Shown: positions 30,067 through 63,566 of the stretch, in pieces
How the letters are laid out: each line of letters opens with the position of its first letter
How positions within the stretch are numbered: position 1 is the first letter of the stretch
Source: an uncultured Fimbriimonadaceae bacterium
GTDB taxonomy: Bacteria > Armatimonadota > UBA10988
Assembly: GCA_964405335.1 (NCBI GenBank)
Contig: CAYONP010000020.1
Span: 2,069-66,068, forward strand
DNA length: 64,000 nt
Reading direction: 5' to 3'
Notes under the pieces: model-generated
Seen by the model: the letters and a program-made list of their open reading frames with translations, nothing else
Database searches by the model: none
Told to the model about the DNA's origin: nothing
Program-made: the position numbers and the translations under genes

Positions 30067-31068
30067 ATGACCCCCCGCGAGCGATTCGAGGCGGCAATCG
30101 CCGGCCGGCCGGTCGACCGCCTGCCCTGCCATCCGCTGACCATGACCTTCGCCAGCCGGCTGATCGGCCGGCCCTACCGCGACTATGTCCACGACCACCG
30201 CGTGTTGGCCGCCGGTCAGCTCGCCGTCGCCGAGACCTTCGGCATCGACTTCGTCTCGGTGATCAGCGATCCGTGCCGCGAAGTCGACGACCTGGGCGGC
30301 GAGTGCACCTACTTCGACGACGAGGCCCCGGCCTGCGACAGCCGCCGCGCCCTGCTGGCCGAGAAGACCGACCTCGCTCGCCTGCAGCCGCCCGACCCGC
30401 TGGGAGGCGGGCGGATGCATGACCGCGTGAACGGCGTGGCGCTGCTGCGCGAGCGCGTTGGGCCCGACTTCCCGGTCCTCGGCTGGGTCGAAGGGCCGAT
30501 CGCCCTGGCCGTCGACCTGCGCGGGATGCAGGCGCTGATGCTCGACACCGTCGACGACCCCGAGTTCGTGCGCGACCTGTTCGCCTTCGCCGTCGACCTC
30601 GAGATCGAGTTCGCCCGCGCGCAGGTCGCTGCCGGGGCCGACTCCATCGGCATCGGCGATGCCGCCGCGTCGCTGGTCGGCCAGACGTTCTACGAGCGCT
30701 ACGTGCTGCCCGAGGAGCGGCGGCTGGTCGACGCGATCCACTCCCTCGACGCGGCGGTGCGACTGCACATCTGCGGCAACACCTCGCACCTGTTCGCCGG
30801 CATTGCCACCCTCGGCTGTGAGCTGGTCGACATCGACTACACCGCCGACCTGGCCGCCGCCCGCGCGTCGATGCCGACCACCGCGCTGCTGGGCAACCTC
30901 GAGCCGGCCCGTTACCTGCTCCGCGGCACGCCCGACGAGGTGACGGCCAAACTGGCCGAGTGCCACGCGGTCGCCGGCGATCGGTTCGTTGTCGGCGCCG
31001 GCTGCGAGGTGCCGAAGTTCAGCCCGCACGAGAACGTGCGGGCGATGGTCCGGTACGCGGCGGCCTAG
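30067..31068 (+). CDS. uroporphyrinogen decarboxylase (URO-D) family protein (MtaA/CmuA-like)
   Basis: 333 aa. URO-D fold conservation (PLTMTFASRLIG; VRLHICGN). Confidence 0.75.
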   Translation: MTPRERFEAAIAGRPVDRLPCHPLTMTFASRLIGRPYRDYVHDHRVLAAGQLAVAETFGIDFVSVISDPCREVDDLGGECTYFDDEAPACDSRRALLAEKTDLARLQPPDPLGGGRMHDRVNGVALLRERVGPDFPVLGWVEGPIALAVDLRGMQALMLDTVDDPEFVRDLFAFAVDLEIEFARAQVAAGADSIGIGDAAASLVGQTFYERYVLPEERRLVDAIHSLDAAVRLHICGNTSHLFAGIATLGCELVDIDYTADLAAARASMPTTALLGNLEPARYLLRGTPDEVTAKLAECHAVAGDRFVVGAGCEVPKFSPHENVRAMVRYAAA

Positions 31069-31225: not shown

Positions 31226-32065
31226 TCAGCCATCTGCGGCGTCCAGGTCTGCTATCAACCCCGGCCCTGAACCCGCGCGCAGCTCCCGCAACAAGTCTTG
31301 CGCAACCATATCAACCCGGACATCACCATCATGCCCCGTCCTCCTAGCCAGAAACTCCAACGGCCGGATCAAGCTCGAGATCGCTCCAGCGAGCTCCTCG
31401 TCAGGCCCGCCGCTCCGCGCGACCCGAGCCAGTAGGCCGATACCGACTAGCAAATCCATCCACGCCGGATGCCCCGACCAACCCGCCAACGCACGGTCGC
31501 GCGGGGATCTCCGCGACAGCGCGAGTATCTCTTCAAGCAAATCACGGTCTGTCCTGCGCGCACTCGCCCCGCCCCTGCCACCCACCGCGAGCGCCTCGTT
31601 AACTTGCTTCAGTAGCTTGGGCCACCACATGTCGAACACAGGTTCCAACACCTCCGGCGGCAAAGCAGCATCTGCCAGTTCGTTATTGATCATCTTGACG
31701 ACGCGCCTCATCTCCTCTTCCGAGAATCTCGCGGCCTGAAACTGCACCAAGGGGCCCGTAACATCCGCGGGCTGCATACCTTCAAAAAGGAGAGGGCAGA
31801 CCTTGGCTTGATCCACACTCTTGGCAAGGGCACCCGCCTCGAACAATAGCCAAGGAGCGTTATGACTCTCCGTCGTAATAACCAGTAGACCAACACAACT
31901 CGCCTCAAGCTCATTCGCGATCTCCGTAGACCAACGTGATCCCTTCGCGACGTCATCTGGACTGAAATAGGGGCGGACAGCCTGAAGCACGCTAGGCAAC
32001 CACTGCCGGAGTACATCCGCCACCGCCCGGCTTCGCTCACCAGACCAGCTGATGAAGACTCTCAT
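31226..32065 (-). CDS. TIR-domain protein (putative NADase; ThsB-like) with C-terminal alpha-helical extension
   Basis: Start at internal ATG (MRVFISWSGERS) with GGAGAAAG Shine-Dalgarno 7 nt upstream. FISWSG..., SRWSTEIANELE (W-x3-E putative catalytic Glu) and LLVITTES are canonical TIR blocks. The C-terminal ~140 aa are helical and uncharacterised. Confidence 0.85.
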   Translation of the reverse strand: MRVFISWSGERSRAVADVLRQWLPSVLQAVRPYFSPDDVAKGSRWSTEIANELEASCVGLLVITTESHNAPWLLFEAGALAKSVDQAKVCPLLFEGMQPADVTGPLVQFQAARFSEEEMRRVVKMINNELADAALPPEVLEPVFDMWWPKLLKQVNEALAVGGRGGASARRTDRDLLEEILALSRRSPRDRALAGWSGHPAWMDLLVGIGLLARVARSGGPDEELAGAISSLIRPLEFLARRTGHDGDVRVDMVAQDLLRELRAGSGPGLIADLDAADG

Positions 32066-32154
32066 ATCTTTCTCCCCGCATGTCGCCTGTTGCTCTGTAC
32101 AGACGACCCACGGCACTGTCGCTTCATGAGCGAAGCTGCGGCGTCGGGCCTCTT

Positions 32155-33123
32155 TTATGTGAGAATCTGTTGGAGGATTACCATCGCAGCTGCTCGGATC
32201 TGTTCTGACTGGTGGTCCAGCACCCTGAACTTCTCCGGCCAGTTAGGATCCTGCGGCGCCTTAAGTTCCCGCCAGTATAACTTCAGGACTCTCTCAGTTC
32301 GCTCGACCTGCTGCATCGCGCCGGCCAGGTCGCCGCGCCCGATGGGCTCATCCGTTATCTCGCCAAGGTCGACCTTCTTCATGGTGCGCATTGGGCGCAC
32401 ACCTTGCATGCCCTGAAGGAGGATCACGATCGTCTGCTCGTAACCATACCAACGCTGACTAACCAATGCGGTCTTTAGGTAGTCGTGACCGATCGCAAAG
32501 AACTCGGACCTAGGCTTGTCAGTGATCTTGCGCAGGCCCTGAGCCTCAGCTGGAAACCAGTTATAGAGCAAGCCGTATGTGCCGTATGTGTCAATTAGCT
32601 GCTTTGCGCTGTTGAGCGGCACCGTGATTTCGCCGATGCAGAATTCTGCTTCGCCGGAATATACGGCGTCCGGGATTTGTTCGAATGTGTCCAGCACGCG
32701 TGTTCCGGCACTGCCCGCGTAATCGAAATCTCCAGGGATGAGCCAGTAGACGTCATAGACAGTAGTGCGCTGGTCAAAAGCATATCCGAGTCCATGCAGC
32801 CACATCTGACAGGTGTCCACGCTCCAGGCATGGAGCACAGTGGACTGTTGCTCCACCTCAGTTGACATTAAACGTAGAAAGGTAGGGTTCTGTGAGTTGC
32901 GATGGAAGGTCTGCCGATTCACAACGGTTATTGGACGCGCATAGCGCGAGGGAGCTGCAGCTAGTTTCGTGATGAGGTTGGCATACAACGCCTTAAGATG
33001 CCGGTCATCACGTGGTTGACTGAAAGGGTAAATGACAATCGGGTGGATTCTCCTGCTCTGGGGTGTTGACGCATCCCCGCTTGGAGCTGCCAGGGTGTCT
33101 GGTTGAGTCGTTGAGTTCGGCAT
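32155..33123 (-). CDS. hypothetical protein, TIR-operon partner (no recognisable family; predicted alpha/beta Rossmann-like)
   Basis: 322-aa ORF 86 bp upstream of the TIR gene on the same strand. Lowest GC in the window. Alternating buried beta-strand-like segments (IVIYPF, ITVVN, VYWLIPGDFDYAGSAG, TIVILLQG). Confidence 0.6.
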   Translation of the reverse strand: MPNSTTQPDTLAAPSGDASTPQSRRIHPIVIYPFSQPRDDRHLKALYANLITKLAAAPSRYARPITVVNRQTFHRNSQNPTFLRLMSTEVEQQSTVLHAWSVDTCQMWLHGLGYAFDQRTTVYDVYWLIPGDFDYAGSAGTRVLDTFEQIPDAVYSGEAEFCIGEITVPLNSAKQLIDTYGTYGLLYNWFPAEAQGLRKITDKPRSEFFAIGHDYLKTALVSQRWYGYEQTIVILLQGMQGVRPMRTMKKVDLGEITDEPIGRGDLAGAMQQVERTERVLKLYWRELKAPQDPNWPEKFRVLDHQSEQIRAAAMVILQQILT

Positions 33124-55008: not shown

Positions 55009-56034
55009 ATGACCCACCGTGAACGACAACTGGCCGCCATCCGGCACCAAGTCGCCGATCGCGTGCCGGTCGACTGCATCTGCATCGAGCCGATCGAGGC
55101 CATCGCCGCGCACCTCGGCATCGCGCCCGAGGCGGTCCACGACGCGCTCGGGATCGACGGCCGACTGGTCGCCCCCGCCTGGCTCGGCGAGCCGCGCGTT
55201 GGACTCGACGGTCAGCCGCTCAGCGCCTGGGGCACCGTGCCGAGTGGCGACTACGGCACCGCGCGCTGGGCCCCGCTCGCCGGCGCCACCAGCATCGCCG
55301 AGGTCGAGCGGCACCGCCTGCCCGACCCGGCCGAGTTCGACTACGCCGGCGCCGCCCGCCGCGCCGCCGACATGGCCGACTACGCCGTGCGCGGGCCCTA
55401 CTGGTTGCCGCTCTTCTGCGGCGTCTGCGACCTGTTCGGCATGGAGCGCGCGCTGCTCCACCTGGCGCTCGAGCCGAGGCTGTTCGAAGCGGCCCTCGAG
55501 CGCATCTTCGCCGTCGTCCACGAGGTCTGCCGCCGACTGCTCGAAGCCAGTGGCGAGGCGCTGCCGATCCTCTGCCTCGGCGACGACTTCGCCACCCAGC
55601 GCGGGCTGATGATGTCACCGGCGGTCTGGCGGCGCTACCTGCTGCCGCGCTATGCGGCGCTGTTCGAGCTGGCCCGGCAGCGCGGGCGGTCCGTCTGGTT
55701 CCACTCTTGCGGCGACATCACGGCGGTGCTGCCCGACCTGATCGAGGCGGGCATGGACGTCTGGGAGACGGTCCAGCTCGACACGCTGCCGCTCGGCGCC
55801 ACCGACCTCAAGCGCGAGTACGGCCGCGACCTGTGCTTCTTCGGCGGCATCAGCACCCAGCGTCTGCCCTACCTGACGCCGGACCAGGTGCGAACCGAGA
55901 CCCGCCGCTGCCTAGAGCGGCTCGGCGCCGGCGGCGGCTACATCTGCGGTCCCGACCACCACCTGAAGCCCGACGTGCCGCCGGCGAACGCGGTGGCGTT
56001 GTTTGGTGAGGCGGTGGGGTTTGGGGGGATGTAG
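55009..56034 (+). CDS. uroporphyrinogen decarboxylase (URO-D) family protein, second paralog
   Basis: 341 aa. URO-D fold (PVDCICIEP; VWFHSCGD), distantly similar to the 30067..31068 paralog. Confidence 0.7.
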   Translation: MTHRERQLAAIRHQVADRVPVDCICIEPIEAIAAHLGIAPEAVHDALGIDGRLVAPAWLGEPRVGLDGQPLSAWGTVPSGDYGTARWAPLAGATSIAEVERHRLPDPAEFDYAGAARRAADMADYAVRGPYWLPLFCGVCDLFGMERALLHLALEPRLFEAALERIFAVVHEVCRRLLEASGEALPILCLGDDFATQRGLMMSPAVWRRYLLPRYAALFELARQRGRSVWFHSCGDITAVLPDLIEAGMDVWETVQLDTLPLGATDLKREYGRDLCFFGGISTQRLPYLTPDQVRTETRRCLERLGAGGGYICGPDHHLKPDVPPANAVALFGEAVGFGGM

Positions 56035-58206: not shown

Positions 58207-58416
58207 TTACGCCGCCACCTCGAATCGCAGGACGATCAACTCCTCGCTCGGCACCGCCAGCATCGCGTAGGTCCGCCCGTCGTCGTCGCTGAACTCGACC
58301 ACCGTGCCGACCTGACCACGGCGGAGCCCGGCCGACTGCTGGTCGGTCAGCAATGCCACCGCCTCGAGCAGCCGTATCTCGGCAGTGCGCATCGCCTCAG
58401 ATGATCTCCAGCTCAT
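58207..58416 (-). CDS. DUF4926-like small protein
   Basis: 69 aa. GQVGTVVEF...YAMLAV matches the DUF4926 SH3-like small-protein pattern. Overlaps the upstream GH172 gene start by 20 bp. Confidence 0.45.
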   Translation of the reverse strand: MSWRSSEAMRTAEIRLLEAVALLTDQQSAGLRRGQVGTVVEFSDDDGRTYAMLAVPSEELIVLRFEVAA

Positions 58417-59494
58417 CCGCCGACGGCAGCGCCGGGAACGGCGCGGTCGGCAGCACCTGGTACCAATAGGCCACGCTCGCCAGATCGTCCTGCAGCGGCA
58501 GGTAGCGCCCGCCGGCGCGCCAGCCGAGGGCCTGGATGGTCACCCGCAGGTCGGTCTGGAAGCGGATCGGGTCGGTGATGTGCCAGCGGTACTGCCCGAA
58601 CCGTATCTGGCTGTTCCACAGCTTGTCTGGCAGGTGCACCTCGGGCATGCCGGTGTACGGACTGCTGAACGGCACGTAGGCGTTGTCGACCACGTAGCAG
58701 TAGGCGCCGCAGAAGTAATCTTCGGTGCCGGTACCACAGATGGTCGGATAGTCGGTGTCGCCGTCCATGAAGAACTTGATCTCGCCCTCGCCCCACCAGC
58801 CGGTGTTGTTGCTCCCCCAGGCCAGGTAGGTGCCGACGTAGTGGCCCTGGCCGCGAAGGCCGTCGACGATGGTGTAGTCGGTCTGGAAGGGCAGTGGGTT
58901 GGTCCGCCGGAACTGGGCGTGGAAGTAAGCCGCGTCGTCGCGCACCGGGCCGAGCGCGTAGTCGACCTGGTAGTAGAGCGTCATCTTCCCTTCGCCAGGC
59001 TTGAAGCTCACCTGGTCGGCCAGGTTGGTCATCGTGATCCGGCAGCGCCGGCGGAACGGCATCGGCCAGTAGCAGTTGAACCCGTTGCGGGGATTGACGC
59101 AGACGGCCAGGCTGTTGACCTGCGCATACTTGCCCCAGCCCTGGGCGAAGAAGTCGCCGACGGGCACCTCGACCGATGGATGCTCCTGATCATCCCAGTA
59201 GAAGCGGAGGATCGACCAGCGGTAGTTGCCGGTCGGCGTCATCCAGATGTGCTGGATCGCGCCGGGCCCTTCGATGTCGGCGAGCACGAACTCGGTGCCC
59301 GGCTCGATCACCACCGAGGGGCTGATCTTCCAGCCCTGGCCCAGGTCGCGCGCGCAGCCGGCGCCGGTGCCCTCGGTGGCCATGCCGCCGGCACCCTTGG
59401 CACCGGTGAAGTTCTCCGGGCTGGCCGAGCGCGTCTGAGCGTCGCTCAACCGGTACAGCGTGCCGAGGTCCACCGCGAGGCCGTCGAATCCCAT
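58397..59494 (-). CDS. GH172 / DUF2961 family glycoside hydrolase
   Basis: 365 aa. DUF2961 jelly-roll hallmarks (GPGAIQHIWMT, RFYWDDQ, GTGTEDYFCGAY). Confidence 0.75.
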   Translation of the reverse strand: MGFDGLAVDLGTLYRLSDAQTRSASPENFTGAKGAGGMATEGTGAGCARDLGQGWKISPSVVIEPGTEFVLADIEGPGAIQHIWMTPTGNYRWSILRFYWDDQEHPSVEVPVGDFFAQGWGKYAQVNSLAVCVNPRNGFNCYWPMPFRRRCRITMTNLADQVSFKPGEGKMTLYYQVDYALGPVRDDAAYFHAQFRRTNPLPFQTDYTIVDGLRGQGHYVGTYLAWGSNNTGWWGEGEIKFFMDGDTDYPTICGTGTEDYFCGAYCYVVDNAYVPFSSPYTGMPEVHLPDKLWNSQIRFGQYRWHITDPIRFQTDLRVTIQALGWRAGGRYLPLQDDLASVAYWYQVLPTAPFPALPSADELEII

Positions 59495-59572: not shown

Positions 59573-61387
59573 TCATCGGTCATCGCGCCACGTGATGAAT
59601 TCAGGCCAGTCCCAATTCACTTTCTCGCACTCGCGGTGTCGTGCGGATCGGTCTTGATAGTATGGCAGCAGCCTGTCGCGGTAGTTCTCCACAAACCACC
59701 CCCACAGATACTCCGGCGGCTCGTGCAACATCGCGTTTGCCCAGCGTGCTGCATCGGGGTCGGAGCGAAAGTACTGCCTCCACGTCTTGAGCGTCTGATC
59801 GTGGTGCCAAAGCTCCGGCAGTGGCTCTGCGAATCCGGAGCCGGTCGTGGGATCTGTGTTGACAATGTCCGAGAGCCACAAAGCAAACATGAAGTGGTGA
59901 TCGGCAAGAAGCCCCTTCACCGGATCCTCCCCCGCCGAGAGGGCCGCTCCGAGGTGCTGGCCGAACCACGGCGAAGTTCGGAGCCACTGGCCTACATGAT
60001 CTTCTGTCGAGCGTAGCGCCTCGCATCTCAGCAGATGGCAGCGATGAAGCGGCGTTGACGACTCCCCGTCCTTCACCGGAAGACCGTAGAGCCGGGAGAG
60101 GAAGGGCCAGCGGCGAAGGTGGACGCTGATGAGCGACCACGTGACGACGAGCGCCACGTGAGCGAACCGGATCGACCATTCGGGCCACTCGTAGTAGCTG
60201 CCGCTTCGCTGCCGATCCACATACATCGAATCTGGGAGGTGTGCCGCAATGTCATTGAGCAGGATGTCGAAAGTCCCGGCGTCGTCGAGCTCGATCACCA
60301 CCGCACCCACCCGGGCCAGGCCTTCGATGCTGGCCAGGACCAACTTTGCCAAGTCTTCCAAGCTCCGTGCCGTTGTCTCTTTGCGAGGGTCGCCTAGCGA
60401 GCTGCGCAGCTCGAGAGTCACGCTGTCACGAAGCCGGCGGCAGAAGTCGACCAAACGGGGTCGTTCGCCGCGAAGTATGAGGGCTCGGACCTCGCGCTCC
60501 AGCACTTCCGGCGACTGCACCGTTGTTTCGCTGGAGAGTGCCTCGATGCGGCTTTCGAGTGTGCGAAGTGCCTCATCAGCGCTCTCTATGCGCATCACGC
60601 GACACCGGTCGTTGCCCCGCAGCTCCGCGACGACCTCGCTCTCCTGGCCGCATGCCAGCCAGTAGAGCAGGTACGGACTGCAGCGCTCTTGGAGCAGCCG
60701 ACAGACGCGCTCGTTCTGCCACCCGTGGTAGCCTACGACGATGATCGCGTTCCGACTTAACAGCTCCGCCAGCACCGCATCCATCGCCGGGTCGAGGTCG
60801 GCAACCTCGGCGGGGGTATTGCGCAGCACGCCGTCGGCCCAGTGACCGTGCGGCTTGAACACGACGCATCGCTCGTGCTCGAACAGCGCCGGATCCGCAC
60901 ACTGCTGCTGCGTGCTGAGGACCGGCGCTTGGATCCCGACCTCGCGCAGGGCGTCTTCCATCAGCGGGTCGAAGTTCGTCGTGACGATGCGCCGTACGCG
61001 CCCGTCGCGGGCTAGGCAAGCGATCACTTGATGTGCCTTGGTCGGCGGGATGACCTCTTCGTTCTGGTCGTCACCCTCCCGCACGAACATGCTGCGCAGG
61101 TACGCTGTCCGATCAGGGATCGACGGACGCACGCGCTCGATCAGTGTGCTGTAGTCGCTGGAGGCCAAGCCCTCGTTCTCGGCCCATTCCTGCACGGCCG
61201 GCGGCAACGGGTCCTGGTCCTGCGTCGCAGCGATGTAGAGTTCCGTCAGCATCCGGTTGTGCACGTCCCACCCCGACGGAATGCCCGCGGCCTTGCTCAC
61301 ACCCGAACCCAGAAACACAACGAACTCGCCACGGCTGCTGGCGAGTTGGATAGCGAGCGACAGTAGGTCGAGTGCTTCGGGGTCCAT
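59573..61387 (-). CDS. SIR2_2-family (ThsA/DSR-like) putative NADase defense protein with uncharacterised Trp-rich C-terminal domain
   Basis: N-terminal EFVVFLGSGVSKAAGIPSGW and IVTTNFDPLMEDAL (the TTNYD-like SIR2 motif) followed by a His-containing loop (VFKPHGHW). The C-terminal ~330 aa has no recognisable domain. GC ~60% by eye against ~70% background. Confidence 0.8.
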   Translation of the reverse strand: MDPEALDLLSLAIQLASSRGEFVVFLGSGVSKAAGIPSGWDVHNRMLTELYIAATQDQDPLPPAVQEWAENEGLASSDYSTLIERVRPSIPDRTAYLRSMFVREGDDQNEEVIPPTKAHQVIACLARDGRVRRIVTTNFDPLMEDALREVGIQAPVLSTQQQCADPALFEHERCVVFKPHGHWADGVLRNTPAEVADLDPAMDAVLAELLSRNAIIVVGYHGWQNERVCRLLQERCSPYLLYWLACGQESEVVAELRGNDRCRVMRIESADEALRTLESRIEALSSETTVQSPEVLEREVRALILRGERPRLVDFCRRLRDSVTLELRSSLGDPRKETTARSLEDLAKLVLASIEGLARVGAVVIELDDAGTFDILLNDIAAHLPDSMYVDRQRSGSYYEWPEWSIRFAHVALVVTWSLISVHLRRWPFLSRLYGLPVKDGESSTPLHRCHLLRCEALRSTEDHVGQWLRTSPWFGQHLGAALSAGEDPVKGLLADHHFMFALWLSDIVNTDPTTGSGFAEPLPELWHHDQTLKTWRQYFRSDPDAARWANAMLHEPPEYLWGWFVENYRDRLLPYYQDRSARHRECEKVNWDWPEFITWRDDR

Positions 61388-61477
61388 TGCCGATTCCGTA
61401 TCTTGCTTCTGATGAAAGCACTACTCGTCAGGCTCTTACACCGAGCCCGGCTTGTATCCTGCATGGCTCCCCAAACC

Positions 61478-61508
61478 CACACCGCCGCCGGCTCCCGCGA
61501 GCCGGCGG
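61478..61508 (-). terminator. GC-rich hairpin (putative intrinsic terminator) downstream of the small minus-strand ORF
   Basis: Perfect 10-bp inverted repeat CCGCCGGCTC-CCGC-GAGCCGGCGG followed on the minus strand by GGGTTTGGGG. Confidence 0.4.
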
Positions 61509-61532
61509 CGGTGAATTGGTTGCGGTAGTCGG

Positions 61533-61778
61533 TTACTCGGTCCCGGCGTCGCCGCCGGCGACCGGCGCGTCGGTCGCGCCGCCGGCGTCGTTGCTCACTC
61601 CGGCGTCACCGGCGCCGTCGGCGACCGGCGGGTCGTTGGTCGGCGTGGCGACGTCGGCCGTCGCCTCGGGCGGCAGCTCCTCGCTCTTTGGGCCGCAGGC
61701 GGGTAGCAGGGCCAGTCCGAGCAGCGCCAGGCCGGCAATCGTCGGCACGGTCCACTTGCGCATACGTCTTCTCCTCAT
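61533..61778 (-). CDS. small putative lipoprotein (weak call)
   Basis: Hydrophobic leader ending LLPAC (Cys lipobox-like), then an acidic Ala/Asp/Gly-rich tail. Confidence 0.35.
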   Translation of the reverse strand: MRRRRMRKWTVPTIAGLALLGLALLPACGPKSEELPPEATADVATPTNDPPVADGAGDAGVSNDAGGATDAPVAGGDAGTE

Positions 61779-61917: not shown

Positions 61918-62655
61918 TCAGTCGTAACCGATGGCGGTGGTGACGGTGCCGCCGAGGACGCCGTCGCAGTCGTAGTCGAGGTCGTTCTTGGCCGGCGCCC
62001 AGACGAAGTTGGCGTTGGCCAGCCGGTTCGGGTCGCTGATCCCGCCGAGCCACTTGACGTGGCCGTCGACGAAGCCGTAGTTGGCGCCCTCGTTATGCCG
62101 GTCGGCGCGGATGCAGCCCGAGGTGTTGCCGGCCCAGGTGCTGCCGACCACGGCTGGGTTGCTCAACTGCCGGCCGTCGGCCCAGGGGAAGGCGCCGGTC
62201 GGGACGATGTAGCAGATGGCCTGCTGGAACGGCGGCGTCGGCGCGGAGTTGGTGCCCTGTACGTCGGCGAAGCAGGGCGACTGCGCCGGGAGCGGGATTT
62301 CGGCCAACGAACGGCCGTTGCTGCCCATCGGGAAGTTGTAGCCGACGCTCAGCCAGACCCGCGTGGACGGGCAGGCCATGACCTGCTGGTTCTTCAGGTA
62401 GGGCTGCACCAGCTCGGTCCAGCGGAAGCCCCAGGCACCCGAGCCGCCGGTGGCCGAGTAGGGGATCACCCGCTCATCGTAGTCCTGGATGTATTGGATC
62501 AGGGAGAGCGTGAGCTGCTTGACGTTGCTCGAGCAGCTCGACTGGCGCGCCTTCTCCCGCGCCTTGGCGAAGACCGGGAAGAGGATGGCGGCGAGGATGG
62601 CGATGATCGCAATCACGACCAGCAGCTCGATCAGAGTAAACGCGCGTCGTCTCAT
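61918..62655 (-). CDS. prepilin-type N-terminal cleavage/methylation domain protein with DUF1559 (H-X9-G) domain
   Basis: [22 protein letters not shown] pseudopilin leader. C-terminal [14 protein letters not shown] is the DUF1559 signature massively expanded in Planctomycetota. Confidence 0.8.
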
Positions 62656-62939
62656 GCTTGGATCCTCCACGCAAAACACAGCCCGAAACGCACCACGACA
62701 CGGCGCGCGCCGGGGCTAGTGAACTATACGAACCACCGGGCCGCGGAGTTCAACGCCCACGGCCTGTGCATCGATTTTGCCACGGGTGTGGGTCGCCTTC
62801 ACGCCGAGTGGCGTTGGTTGACGCGAAAGTGAGACCGCGGGCGACCGCTGGCGGCCAAGGACACCTCGCCGCGCCGGCGAACGCCGGCTGTGGCACGTTG
62901 ATCGCGGCCGGCCGGCGAATAACGTGCGCGGGGCGGGGT

Positions 62940-63566
62940 ATGGCAGGACCGGGAGCAGGGCTCGCCGGAGCGAAGGAGCAGAAGCGCGTGGCCGAGGTCG
63001 ACTGCCGACTGGCCAACGAAGCGGTGCTCATCCGCCGGGCGCAGAACGGCGACCGCAACGCCTTTGGCGAGCTGGTCACCGCCTATATGCAGCGCGCCTA
63101 TTACGCCGCGCTGAGCCTGGTCGGCAACCATGATGACGCGCTCGACCTGTCGCAGGAGGCGTTTGCCCGCGCCTATCGCGCCCGGCAGACGATCGATCCC
63201 GAACAGCCGTTCTACAACTGGTATTACACCATCCTGCGGCGGCTCTGCTTCAACTTCGTGCGCGACCGCCGGCGGCGCCGCGAGCGGCTCGAGGAACATG
63301 CCGGGTGGCTGGTCGACGAAGCCGATGCGCGGGCCGCCGGTGACGACCCGGCACGGGCGGCCGAGGCGACCGAGCTGCACCGGCAGCTTCGGCGGGCGAT
63401 TGACCGGCTGCCCGAACGCGAGCGCGAGATGCTGGTGTTGAAGGAATACCAGAACCTGAAATACCGCGAGATCGCCGCGCTGCTGGAGATCCCGATCGGC
63501 ACGGTCATGAGCCGGCTCTATACCGCGCGCCGGCACCTGGCTGAGCTGATGGAGGGCGAACTGTGA
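62940..63566 (+). CDS. ECF-type RNA polymerase sigma factor
   Basis: Region 2 (AFGELVTAYMQRAYYAALSLVGNHDDALDLSQEAF) and region 4 (LKEYQNLKYREIAALLEIPIGTVMSRL). Confidence 0.8.
   Translation: MAGPGAGLAGAKEQKRVAEVDCRLANEAVLIRRAQNGDRNAFGELVTAYMQRAYYAALSLVGNHDDALDLSQEAFARAYRARQTIDPEQPFYNWYYTILRRLCFNFVRDRRRRRERLEEHAGWLVDEADARAAGDDPARAAEATELHRQLRRAIDRLPEREREMLVLKEYQNLKYREIAALLEIPIGTVMSRLYTARRHLAELMEGEL

What the first reader, a model, noticed from the sequence alone, without database searches (positions are those of the whole stretch)
59573..61387. Stand-alone 604-aa SIR2_2-family protein with a novel C-terminal domain in a lower-GC segment
The N-terminal ~270 aa carry the defense-type SIR2 (PF13289-like) motifs VFLGSGVS...IPS and TTNFD, as in ThsA, DSR1/2 and SIR2-HerA. 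The C-terminal ~330 aa (Trp-rich, helical) match nothing I recognise. It is smaller than DSR1/2 (~1000 aa), lacks SLOG, and has no HerA or pAgo neighbour. GC is ~60% by eye against ~70% background. Flanking genes are glycan-metabolism genes and a small ORF followed by a strong hairpin. This is a candidate single-gene NAD-depleting abortive-infection protein with a new sensor domain.
Basis: partly seen in the sequence, partly recalled or inferred. Interest (0 to 1): 0.65.

Follow-up and report, generated by a model that had tools for sequence, protein, structure and literature searches.

The report
Divergent stand-alone SIR2 defence candidate
This 604-residue protein joins a predicted NAD-destroying SIR2 enzyme to an uncharacterised helical domain, and it is a distant member of a widespread family that PADLOC already lists (PDC-S65) as an untested candidate anti-phage gene.

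Summary
ORF 59573-61387 (-) encodes 604 aa with an intact defence-type SIR2 domain (GSGVS, TTNFD with N138, KPHG with H180) and an all-alpha, Trp-rich C-terminal domain (CTD). Gene GC is 63.5% against 70.5% for the window.

PADLOC's PDC-S65 profile matches at E=3e-72. PDC systems are 145 untested 'guilt-by-embedding' candidates. Typical family members are 570-600 aa and occur in at least 422 species genomes of bacteria and archaea and on 48 plasmids. None of 80 loci examined has a conserved partner gene.

The SIR2 domain is closest to the SIR2 of short-pAgo SIR2-APAZ (SPARSA). The CTD is not APAZ, SLOG or DSR-like, and it has no Pfam, PDB-sequence or Foldseek/PDB match. On its own it finds only itself among 1.84 billion representative proteins. 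Profile-profile comparison nevertheless shows it is a very divergent copy of the family's own CTD (hhalign 82%, controls far lower).

Against its one close relative, the gene evolves much faster than its neighbour, and the change is concentrated in CTD residues 396-500.

Most likely it is a single-protein, NAD+-depleting abortive-infection sensor-effector. That function is inferred, not shown. Verdict: new, divergent member of a known candidate kind; moderate interest.

The parts
59573..61387 (-). Complete ORF: 604-aa SIR2 + helical-CTD protein, a divergent PDC-S65-like member
   Evidence: ORF listing. PADLOC PDC-S65 PDLC05061 E=3.3e-72, residues 7-456 against profile positions 18-462 of 592. 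A 100%-identical protein is present in NCBI as P0001.
60524..61387 (-). N-terminal SIR2 (Rossmann) domain, residues 1-288; the predicted NADase effector
   Evidence: Pfam SIR2_2. AlphaFold pLDDT is mostly 84-96. Best PDB relatives are SPARSA SIR2-APAZ 8jkz/8in8 (profile E=1.3e-22; Foldseek 4.7e-9), followed by DSR2, ThsA and KomC.
61295..61309 (-). GSGVS loop (G27-S31), the NAD-binding glycine-rich motif
   Evidence: G27, S28, G29 and S31 are invariant in 58 family sequences.
60968..60982 (-). TTNFD motif (T136-D140) containing the catalytic Asn138
   Evidence: Invariant in the family. It aligns to TTNFD/N142 of GsSir2. The N142A mutant of GsSir2 loses NADase activity (PMC10781750).
60845..60856 (-). 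KPHG motif (K178-G181) containing the catalytic His180
   Evidence: K178 and G181 are invariant and H180 is conserved in at least 90%. It aligns to KIHGD/H186 of GsSir2. The H186A mutant of GsSir2 loses NADase activity.
59576..60523 (-). C-terminal all-alpha domain (residues 289-604); the putative sensor/regulatory domain
   Evidence: All-helical in both models. No Pfam match, no PDB sequence match, no significant Foldseek hit in PDB or BFVD. phmmer against 1.84e9 representatives finds only itself. Remote colinear homology to the family CTD.
59888..60202 (-). Fast-diverging CTD segment (residues 396-500)
   Evidence: Compared with the homologue in L081 this segment is 70.5% identical, dS 0.53, dN 0.20. 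Residues 286-395 are 99% identical (dS 0.05), and the adjacent DUF2961 gene is 98.6% identical (omega 0.04).
61388..61479 (-). 92-nt lower-GC leader between the upstream hairpin and the ATG; presumed own promoter region (inferred)
   Evidence: Sequence read directly. No sigma-70 consensus was found, and that scan does not cover other promoter types.
61480..61513 (-). 15-bp GC hairpin: likely terminator of the upstream DUF1559/lipoprotein unit, marking the 5' boundary of the SIR2 transcription unit
   Evidence: Fold gives -46.4 kcal/mol, z=-5.33, and 0 of 200 shuffles fold as well. It begins 19 nt after the stop codon of ORF 61533-61778.

Best explanation
The gene encodes a single-polypeptide sensor-effector of the SIR2 defence class. 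It is a remote sub-lineage of the PADLOC candidate family PDC-S65.

Proposed mechanism:
1. The N-terminal SIR2 domain is an NAD+ glycohydrolase, using Asn138 and His180. It is held inactive in uninfected cells.
2. The C-terminal all-alpha domain acts as the regulatory or recognition module.
3. When the CTD binds a phage-derived trigger, most plausibly a protein as in DSR2, it releases or oligomerises the SIR2 domain.
4. NAD+ is depleted and the infected cell stops supporting phage replication (abortive infection).

What is shown: domain identity, intact catalytic motifs, family membership, the stand-alone arrangement, mobile and defence-flavoured contexts of relatives, and fast, mosaic evolution of the distal CTD.

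What is inferred: NADase activity, autoinhibition, the nature of the trigger, and the abortive-infection outcome.
For: 1. SIR2_2 scores above Pfam's gathering score. GSGxS, TTNFD and KxHG are invariant or nearly invariant in the family. N138 and H180 align to the experimentally essential N142 and H186 of GsSir2.
2. The strongest profile match is PADLOC PDC-S65 (E=3.3e-72). Next come the pAgo-associated SIR2 (5.6e-26), ThsA (2e-6) and HerA-type SIR2 (6e-6). Every detectable relative is a defence NADase.
3. Core family members match PDC-S65 end to end at 660-729 bits. PDC families were defined by embedding within BREX, DISARM and type I R-M systems.
4. Across 80 genome loci no partner gene is conserved. 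The commonest neighbours are tyrosine integrases (8 loci) and type I R-M subunits (4-5 loci). Immediate neighbours include HsdM/HsdS, MADS mad2/mad5, TIR_2, AAA_21/AAA_15 and type ISP.
5. Relatives sit on 48 plasmids, 22 of them conjugative or mobilizable, next to VapBC, Shedu SduA, IS5 and an integrase.
6. The same SIR2 type is fused to other C-termini: TPR in P0082 and NB-ARC/TPR in P0120. This is the effector/sensor modularity typical of immune proteins.
7. Lower GC and GC3 than the host genome suggest horizontal acquisition.
8. Against the homologue in L081, in the same genomic context, the gene has omega 0.32 while its neighbour has 0.04. Divergence is concentrated in CTD residues 396-500.
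Against: - No experiment exists for this protein or for PDC-S65. 'PDC-S65' occurs in 0 papers of the library, Payne et al. call the PDCs untested, and the later validation study did not include S65.
- In this window the gene is not in a defence island. Its neighbours are glycan-related or unknown-function genes with no PADLOC hits. No tRNA was found in the window; integrases and transposases were not searched for systematically.
- The gene-DUF2961 arrangement is conserved in a related organism. No terminator separates them, so co-transcription with a non-defence gene is possible.
- The PDC-S65 match is weak compared with core members (243 against about 700 bits) and stops at profile position 462 of 592.
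- Omega is below 1 everywhere, so positive selection is not demonstrated.
- The distal CTD model has low confidence (pLDDT 40-65).
- The neighbourhood survey has no formal enrichment control.
Confidence: 0.58

Rival explanations
1. It is a SIR2 effector used in some other conflict or stress context, not specifically anti-phage. Examples are an addiction or toxin module, anti-plasmid defence or competition between mobile elements, or an NADase triggered by cellular stress.
For: Relatives are common on plasmids and next to toxin-antitoxin genes, IS elements, LexA and SRAP. The gene has no identified trigger. The family is only a computational candidate.
Against: Every characterised relative of this SIR2 clade (SPARSA, DSR2, ThsA, KomC, Avs5) acts against phage. 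No antitoxin-like partner is conserved in 80 loci.
Confidence: 0.17
2. It is a housekeeping or regulatory sirtuin-like enzyme (protein deacylase, ADP-ribosyltransferase or metabolic NADase) that works with the downstream DUF2961/DUF4926 genes as part of a glycan-utilisation operon.
For: Same strand as DUF2961, with a 78-nt gap and no terminator detected between them. The same gene order occurs in the related contig L081. No mobile-element or defence genes flank it here.
Against: DUF2961 does not recur next to family members in 80 other loci. No neighbour family occurs in more than 8 loci, and none of the immediate neighbours recurs in more than 3 of 141. Canonical sirtuin models (CobB) score only E about 3e-4, far below their cutoffs. 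The gene's GC3 (0.78) differs from DUF2961's (0.93). It evolves roughly ten times faster at non-synonymous sites than DUF2961.
Confidence: 0.12
3. It is an orphaned SIR2-APAZ subunit of a short-pAgo (SPARSA) system that has lost its Argonaute partner.
For: The SIR2 domain's nearest solved and PADLOC-known relative is SIR2-APAZ. SIR2-APAZ proteins have the same length, 584-587 aa.
Against: All similarity ends at the SIR2 domain (query residues 20-249 in PADLOC; profile positions 113-261 in PDB). APAZ is built on beta-sheet cores (PMC10781750), whereas the CTD here is all-alpha. The CTD profile and model do not hit SPARSA chains. No pAgo lies next to it here or recurs in the 80 loci.
Confidence: 0.03
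4. It is a decaying or non-functional remnant of a horizontally acquired gene.
For: The CTD is an orphan at sequence level. The match to the family profile is weak. The distal CTD is modelled with low confidence.
Against: The 604-codon ORF is intact with the family-typical length. All catalytic residues are retained. An ortholog of identical length, without indels, exists in a second organism with omega 0.32, which indicates purifying selection.
Confidence: 0.05

Closest known systems
PADLOC phage-defence candidate PDC-S65 (Payne et al., bioRxiv 10.1101/2024.01.29.577857)
   Same: A single gene of about 590 aa with an N-terminal SIR2_2 domain and a C-terminal helical domain. HMM match E=3.3e-72 covering the SIR2 domain and the proximal CTD. 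Same invariant catalytic motifs. The CTD is colinear by hhalign.
   Different: Scores about 243 bits against 660-729 bits for core members. Profile positions 463-592 are not aligned. The CTD is undetectable by single-sequence search and is twice as Trp-rich. This locus is not embedded in an R-M, BREX or DISARM system.
SPARSA SIR2-APAZ (GsSir2; PDB 8jkz, 8jl0, 8in8, 8y80)
   Same: The closest solved SIR2 domain (profile E=1.3e-22; Foldseek E=4.7e-9). The Asn/His dyad aligns (N138/H180 to N142/H186). Overall length is similar.
   Different: No APAZ domain and no pAgo partner. The CTD is all-alpha rather than alpha/beta. Activation therefore cannot be guide-RNA/target-DNA dependent through an Argonaute.
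DSR2 (and DSR1), defence-associated sirtuins
   Same: A single polypeptide with an N-terminal SIR2 NADase followed by an alpha-helical C-terminal region. This is the best working analogy: in DSR2 the helical region binds the phage tail tube protein.
   Different: About 600 aa against about 1000-1260 aa. NCBIfam Dsr1 scores 19.3 bits against a cutoff of 1400. There are no PADLOC DSR hits. The full-length Foldseek alignment to DSR2 has rmsd about 20 A and TM 0.37, explained by the SIR2 domain alone. DSR2 is absent from the CTD-only hits.
Thoeris ThsA
   Same: A SIR2 NADase effector with weak similarity (PADLOC 2e-6; PDB profile 6e-6).
   Different: No SLOG/STALD domain and no adjacent ThsB. ThsA is activated by a cyclic ADPR isomer signal; nothing here suggests a second-messenger receptor.
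SIR2-STAND proteins (Avs5-like; P0082, P0120)
   Same: P0082 carries a PDC-S65-type SIR2 domain (440 bits) as its N-terminal effector.
   Different: Those proteins have NB-ARC and/or TPR modules. The query has no NTPase domain.

Membership tests
PADLOC PDC-S65 | Significant match to the PDC-S65 profile HMMs (PDLC05061 / PDLC05060) | tested here: met
   E=3.3e-72 (242.6 bits) and E=1.2e-39.
PADLOC PDC-S65 | Match along the whole profile, including the distal C-terminal domain | tested here: inconclusive
   Only profile positions 18-462 of 592 are aligned, whereas core members cover about 12-591. hhalign supports colinear homology over 262-281 of 319 CTD columns at 82% probability, with controls at or below a score of 23.
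PADLOC PDC-S65 | Single-gene system with no obligatory partner | tested here: met
   No conserved neighbour in 80 loci or on plasmids.
PADLOC PDC-S65 | Association with or embedding in defence systems (the basis of the candidate call) | tested here: inconclusive
   At family level, type I R-M, MADS, TIR and Shedu neighbours occur in a minority of loci, without a formal control. This locus has no defence neighbours. The nearest defence-like gene is a TIR protein 27 kb away.
PADLOC PDC-S65 | Demonstrated anti-phage activity | not testable with these tools
   No published test was found.
Defence-type SIR2 NADases (Pfam SIR2_2, PF13289) | Pfam SIR2_2 match above the gathering score | tested here: met
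   34.6 bits against a cutoff of 24.5.
Defence-type SIR2 NADases (Pfam SIR2_2, PF13289) | Catalytic Asn and His plus the glycine-rich NAD loop | tested here: met
   N138, H180 and G27-S31 are conserved and align to N142/H186 of GsSir2.
Defence-type SIR2 NADases (Pfam SIR2_2, PF13289) | NAD+ hydrolysis on activation | not testable with these tools
   Requires biochemistry.
SPARSA / short pAgo SIR2-APAZ | C-terminal APAZ domain | tested here: not met
   Similarity ends at about residue 250-280. The CTD is all-alpha. There are no SPARSA hits with the CTD profile or model.
SPARSA / short pAgo SIR2-APAZ | Adjacent short pAgo gene | tested here: not met
   The neighbours are DUF2961, DUF4926 and a lipoprotein-like ORF.
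Thoeris ThsA | C-terminal SLOG/STALD domain and a neighbouring ThsB (TIR) | tested here: not met
   The ThsA HMM matches only SIR2 residues 114-183. No SLOG is found in Pfam. No TIR gene is adjacent.
DSR1 / DSR2 | Family HMM match and about 1000-1260 aa architecture with MID/CTD sensor domains | tested here: not met
   NCBIfam Dsr1 scores 19.3 bits against a cutoff of 1400. The protein is 604 aa. The CTD model does not retrieve DSR2.
SIR2-HerA (Nezha) | Adjacent HerA ATPase | tested here: not met
   No HerA is present here or recurrent in the 80 loci.

The most novel reading that the evidence does not exclude
The all-alpha C-terminal domain of this family is a structurally new class of phage-sensing module. 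It has no significant PDB or BFVD fold match and no Pfam family. In this Planctomycetota-like lineage it has diverged beyond sequence recognition, with a recombining hypervariable segment (residues 396-500) that sets trigger specificity. The protein would then be the minimal 'mini-DSR': one SIR2 plus one compact sensor, with a previously unknown trigger.
Probability: 0.3. Interest if true: 0.6.

Novelty: new member of a known kind. Interest (0 to 1): 0.4.

Why it matters
SIR2 NADases are among the most common abortive-infection effectors. The well-studied examples are either large (DSR1/2, Avs5) or multi-component (Thoeris, SIR2-HerA, SPARSA).

PDC-S65-like proteins are compact single-chain versions. 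They are present in hundreds of bacterial and archaeal species and on plasmids. Yet the library holds no experimental test and no structure, and the function of their C-terminal domain is unknown.

This locus adds a far-diverged lineage with a natural allele pair (88% identical, with differences clustered in one CTD segment). That pair could guide mapping of the recognition surface. If validated, the family would give a minimal model for how a small helical domain gates a SIR2 NADase. It would also improve annotation of many proteins now labelled only 'SIR2 family protein'.

Tried and rejected
- SLOG, APAZ or DSR-sensor identity of the CTD: rejected. The PADLOC, NCBIfam and PDB-profile matches stop at the SIR2 domain. 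The CTD profile finds no PDB sequence match and no Pfam family. Foldseek of the CTD model against PDB and BFVD gives nothing with E<=0.001, only generic helical repeats with TM<=0.34.
- A hidden conserved partner gene: rejected by all-vs-all clustering of ORFs within +/-5 kb in 80 loci and by bulk PADLOC and Pfam scans of 141 nearest neighbours.
- A membrane helix in the CTD: the maximum Kyte-Doolittle 19-residue score is 1.75, on a segment containing charged residues, so it is not convincing.
- An ncRNA or tRNA attachment site near the gene: Rfam gives 0 hits and there are no tRNAs.
- Promoter consensus upstream: none found.
- Single-sequence search for the CTD elsewhere, or fused to other effectors: only a self hit.
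- Look-up of the exact source contig failed. The organism was not determined and is only inferred to be Planctomycetota-like, from DUF1559 plus N-methyl proteins.
- A literature search for any test of PDC-S65 found none.
Full report
OBSERVATION

Pfam finds SIR2_2 (PF13289, 34.6 bits against a gathering score of 24.5). In a 58-sequence family alignment G27, S28, G29, S31, T136-T137-N138-F139-D140, K178 and G181 are invariant, and H180 is conserved in at least 90%.

The gene's GC is 63.5% (GC3 0.78). The 45 ORFs of the window average 70.5 +/- 3.5% (GC3 0.89 +/- 0.065), and this is the second-lowest-GC ORF (profile). 'Lower GC' is therefore right, but 'about 60%' overstates it.

Downstream on the same strand lie:
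- DUF2961 (58397-59494), reached after a 78-nt gap with a GGAG ribosome-binding site and no detected terminator;
- DUF4926 (58207-58416);
- a CarboxypepD_reg protein.

Upstream is an 81-aa lipoprotein-like ORF (61533-61778). Its stop codon is followed 19 nt later by a 15-bp perfect GC hairpin at 61480-61513 (-46.4 kcal/mol, z=-5.3). This most simply terminates the upstream DUF1559/lipoprotein unit, and it leaves a 92-nt leader before the SIR2 start codon.

WHAT THE PROTEIN BELONGS TO

PADLOC-DB gives a strong hit to PDC-S65: PDLC05061, E=3.3e-72, residues 7-456 against profile positions 18-462 of 592. Weaker hits follow to the pAgo-associated SIR2 (Aga_SIR2-PNTD1-PNTD2, 5.6e-26, residues 20-249 only), ThsA (2e-6) and HerA-type SIR2 models. 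NCBIfam Dsr1 scores 19.3 bits against a cutoff of 1400.

PDC systems are the 145 'phage defence candidates' that Payne et al. derived by guilt-by-embedding within BREX, DISARM and type I R-M systems. The authors explicitly describe them as untested (bioRxiv 10.1101/2024.01.29.577857). 'PDC-S65' appears in no paper of the library. The one validation study I found tested other PDCs.

A database search returned 134 homologues, nearly all 570-610 aa with SIR2_2 as the only Pfam domain. A genome scan confirmed at least 422 loci in bacteria and archaea. They include Pseudomonas, Citrobacter, Bradyrhizobium, Thermoguttaceae, Methanosarcina and Heimdallarchaeota. Forty-eight plasmids carry relatives, and 22 of those plasmids are conjugative or mobilizable. 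Only two phage records do.

Core members (P0008, P0013, P0069, P0047) match PDC-S65 end to end at 660-729 bits. The query and its one close relative P0002 score about 240 bits. The window protein is therefore a remote sub-lineage of this family.

STAND-ALONE STATUS

I called ORFs in the 80 fetched loci and clustered everything within +/-5 kb. No neighbour family recurs. The largest cluster is a tyrosine integrase (8 loci), followed by type I R-M HsdS, HsdR and HsdM (4-5 loci each).

Bulk scans of the 141 nearest flanking ORFs found 121 different Pfam families, none in more than 3 ORFs. Among them was a sprinkling of defence-type genes: HsdM/HsdS, MADS mad2/mad5, TIR_2, AAA_21/AAA_15 and type ISP. 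Annotated plasmid contexts show VapBC, Shedu SduA, IS5, an integrase and LexA.

This supports a single-gene module in variable, often mobile or defence-rich regions. I did not run a formal enrichment control.

SIR2 DOMAIN

The family profile's best PDB relatives are 8jkz, 8jl0 and 8in8 (E=1.3e-22, SIR2 region only). These are the Geobacter SPARSA SIR2-APAZ subunit. N138 and H180 align with N142 and H186 of that protein. Alanine mutants of those two residues abolish NADase activity (PMC10781750).

The AlphaFold model (mean pLDDT 75) has a confident Rossmann-type SIR2 domain at residues 1-288. Foldseek retrieves SPARSA, DSR2, ThsA and KomC. All detectable relatives are defence NADases. Canonical deacylase sirtuin models score only marginally.

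C-TERMINAL DOMAIN

Residues 289-604 are all-alpha in both the full-length and the domain-only models (the domain-only model has pTM 0.74 and pLDDT 72, and is weak beyond about residue 450 of the protein).

The CTD is not APAZ, which is built on beta-sheet cores, and it is not SLOG. Negative results:
- no Pfam family in any of 38 family CTDs;
- no PDB sequence relative, even with a profile at E<=10;
- no Foldseek hit with E<=0.001 in PDB or BFVD, only generic TPR, ARM or designed helical repeats with TM<=0.34.

DSR2 aligned to the full-length model over 620-690 columns, but at rmsd about 20 A and TM 0.37, which the SIR2 domain alone explains. DSR2 does not appear among the CTD-only hits.

A phmmer search with the CTD alone against 1.84 billion representative proteins found only the protein itself. 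It is nevertheless not an unrelated domain:
- the PDC-S65 HMM aligns through residue 456;
- a profile of the other members' CTDs aligns to its first ~155 residues;
- hhalign of query plus P0002 against 56 family CTDs gives a colinear alignment of 262-281 columns (score 42, probability 82%, P about 1e-5). The reversed control scores 16.2 and 20 column-shuffles score 10.3-22.7.

The 'novel C-terminal domain' is thus the family's own uncharacterised CTD, diverged almost beyond recognition. It is unusually Trp-rich (4.7% against a family median of 2.1%). The same SIR2 type also occurs fused to TPR or NB-ARC modules (P0082, P0120), which shows effector/sensor modularity.

EVOLUTIONARY BEHAVIOUR

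The only close homologue, P0002 (Logan run SRR26372211, contig L081), sits in the same context. Its downstream DUF2961 fragment is 144/146 identical, yet the SIR2 protein is only 88.4% identical.

Nei-Gojobori estimates:

| Region | Identity | dS | dN | omega |
|---|---|---|---|---|
| SIR2 gene, whole | 88.4% | 0.216 | 0.069 | 0.32 |
| SIR2 domain, residues 1-285 | 93% | 0.162 | 0.036 | 0.22 |
| CTD 286-395 | 99% | 0.048 | 0.004 | 0.09 |
| CTD 396-500 | 70.5% | 0.53 | 0.20 | 0.37 |
| CTD 501-604 | 82.7% | 0.340 | 0.113 | 0.33 |
| DUF2961 (146 codons) | 98.6% | 0.154 | 0.006 | 0.04 |

The ten-fold range of dS along one gene suggests mosaic recombination between alleles. The relaxed or diversifying pattern is focused on the distal CTD. 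That is what one expects of a recognition surface. It does not prove positive selection, because omega is below 1 throughout.

MECHANISM, WITH STATUS OF EACH STEP

- Shown: an intact SIR2 fold and catalytic dyad; membership, though remote, of a single-gene family catalogued as a defence candidate; no partner gene; mobile and defence-flavoured contexts of relatives; compositional signs of acquisition; fast, mosaic CTD evolution.
- Inferred: the SIR2 domain is an autoinhibited NADase; the helical CTD recognises a phage component, by analogy with DSR2, whose helical C-terminal region binds the tail tube protein; binding activates NAD+ depletion and abortive infection.

My confidence in this reading is about 0.58.

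Rivals:
- a SIR2 effector used in another conflict or stress setting (0.17);
- a housekeeping or regulatory enzyme co-transcribed with DUF2961 (0.12). This is supported by the missing terminator and the conserved adjacency. It is opposed by the absence of DUF2961 next to other family members, the GC3 contrast (0.78 against 0.93) and the rate contrast;
- an orphan SIR2-APAZ (0.03, effectively refuted);
- a decaying gene (0.05, opposed by the intact ortholog pair under purifying selection).

NOVELTY AND SCORE

The kind of system (SIR2 NADase plus sensor, single gene) is known, and the family is already in PADLOC. The protein is therefore a new, divergent member of a known (candidate) kind and not a new system.

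Noticed in passing
window 31226-33123 (- strand): A second low-GC islet (GC 0.54-0.60 against 0.70). ORF 31226-32116 is a TIR-domain protein that matches PADLOC 'TIR-TM' (E=5.8e-68, profile positions 1-191 of 293) and Pfam TIR_2. The adjacent 322-aa ORF 32155-33123 has the lowest GC in the window (0.552, GC3 0.64) and no Pfam or PADLOC hit. This may be a second, independently acquired NADase-type defence candidate, 27 kb from the SIR2 gene.
   Followed up: partly
window 58207-58416 (-) and 58397-59494 (-): A 69-aa DUF4926 ORF overlaps the 3' end of the DUF2961 gene by 20 nt, which suggests translational coupling. The role of this small protein, directly downstream of the SIR2-DUF2961 pair, is unknown.
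   Followed up: no
L081:19-1833 compared with window 59573-61387: Synonymous divergence varies about ten-fold along the SIR2 gene (dS 0.05 for codons 286-395, 0.53 for codons 396-500). The flanking DUF2961 gene has dS 0.15. This suggests allele mosaicism by recombination within the gene.
   Followed up: partly
P0082 (997 aa) and P0120 (864 aa): A PDC-S65-type SIR2 domain (440 bits for P0082) is fused to TPR/PF25872 or to NB-ARC+TPR instead of the family CTD. The same effector is therefore paired with STAND- or TPR-type sensors.
   Followed up: partly
window 61918-62679 (-) and 62658-63566 (+): A DUF1559 protein with a prepilin-type N-methylation motif, next to an ECF sigma factor. Together with about 70% GC this points to a Planctomycetota-like source organism. 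This is an inference; the organism was not determined.
   Followed up: no
window 30067-31068 (+) and 55009-56034 (+): There are two URO-D-like (uroporphyrinogen decarboxylase family) paralogues in the window. One borders the TIR islet, and the other lies 3.5 kb downstream of the SIR2 gene's 3' end (gene end 59573), beyond DUF2961, DUF4926 and the CarboxypepD_reg gene. This is probably coincidental.
   Followed up: no
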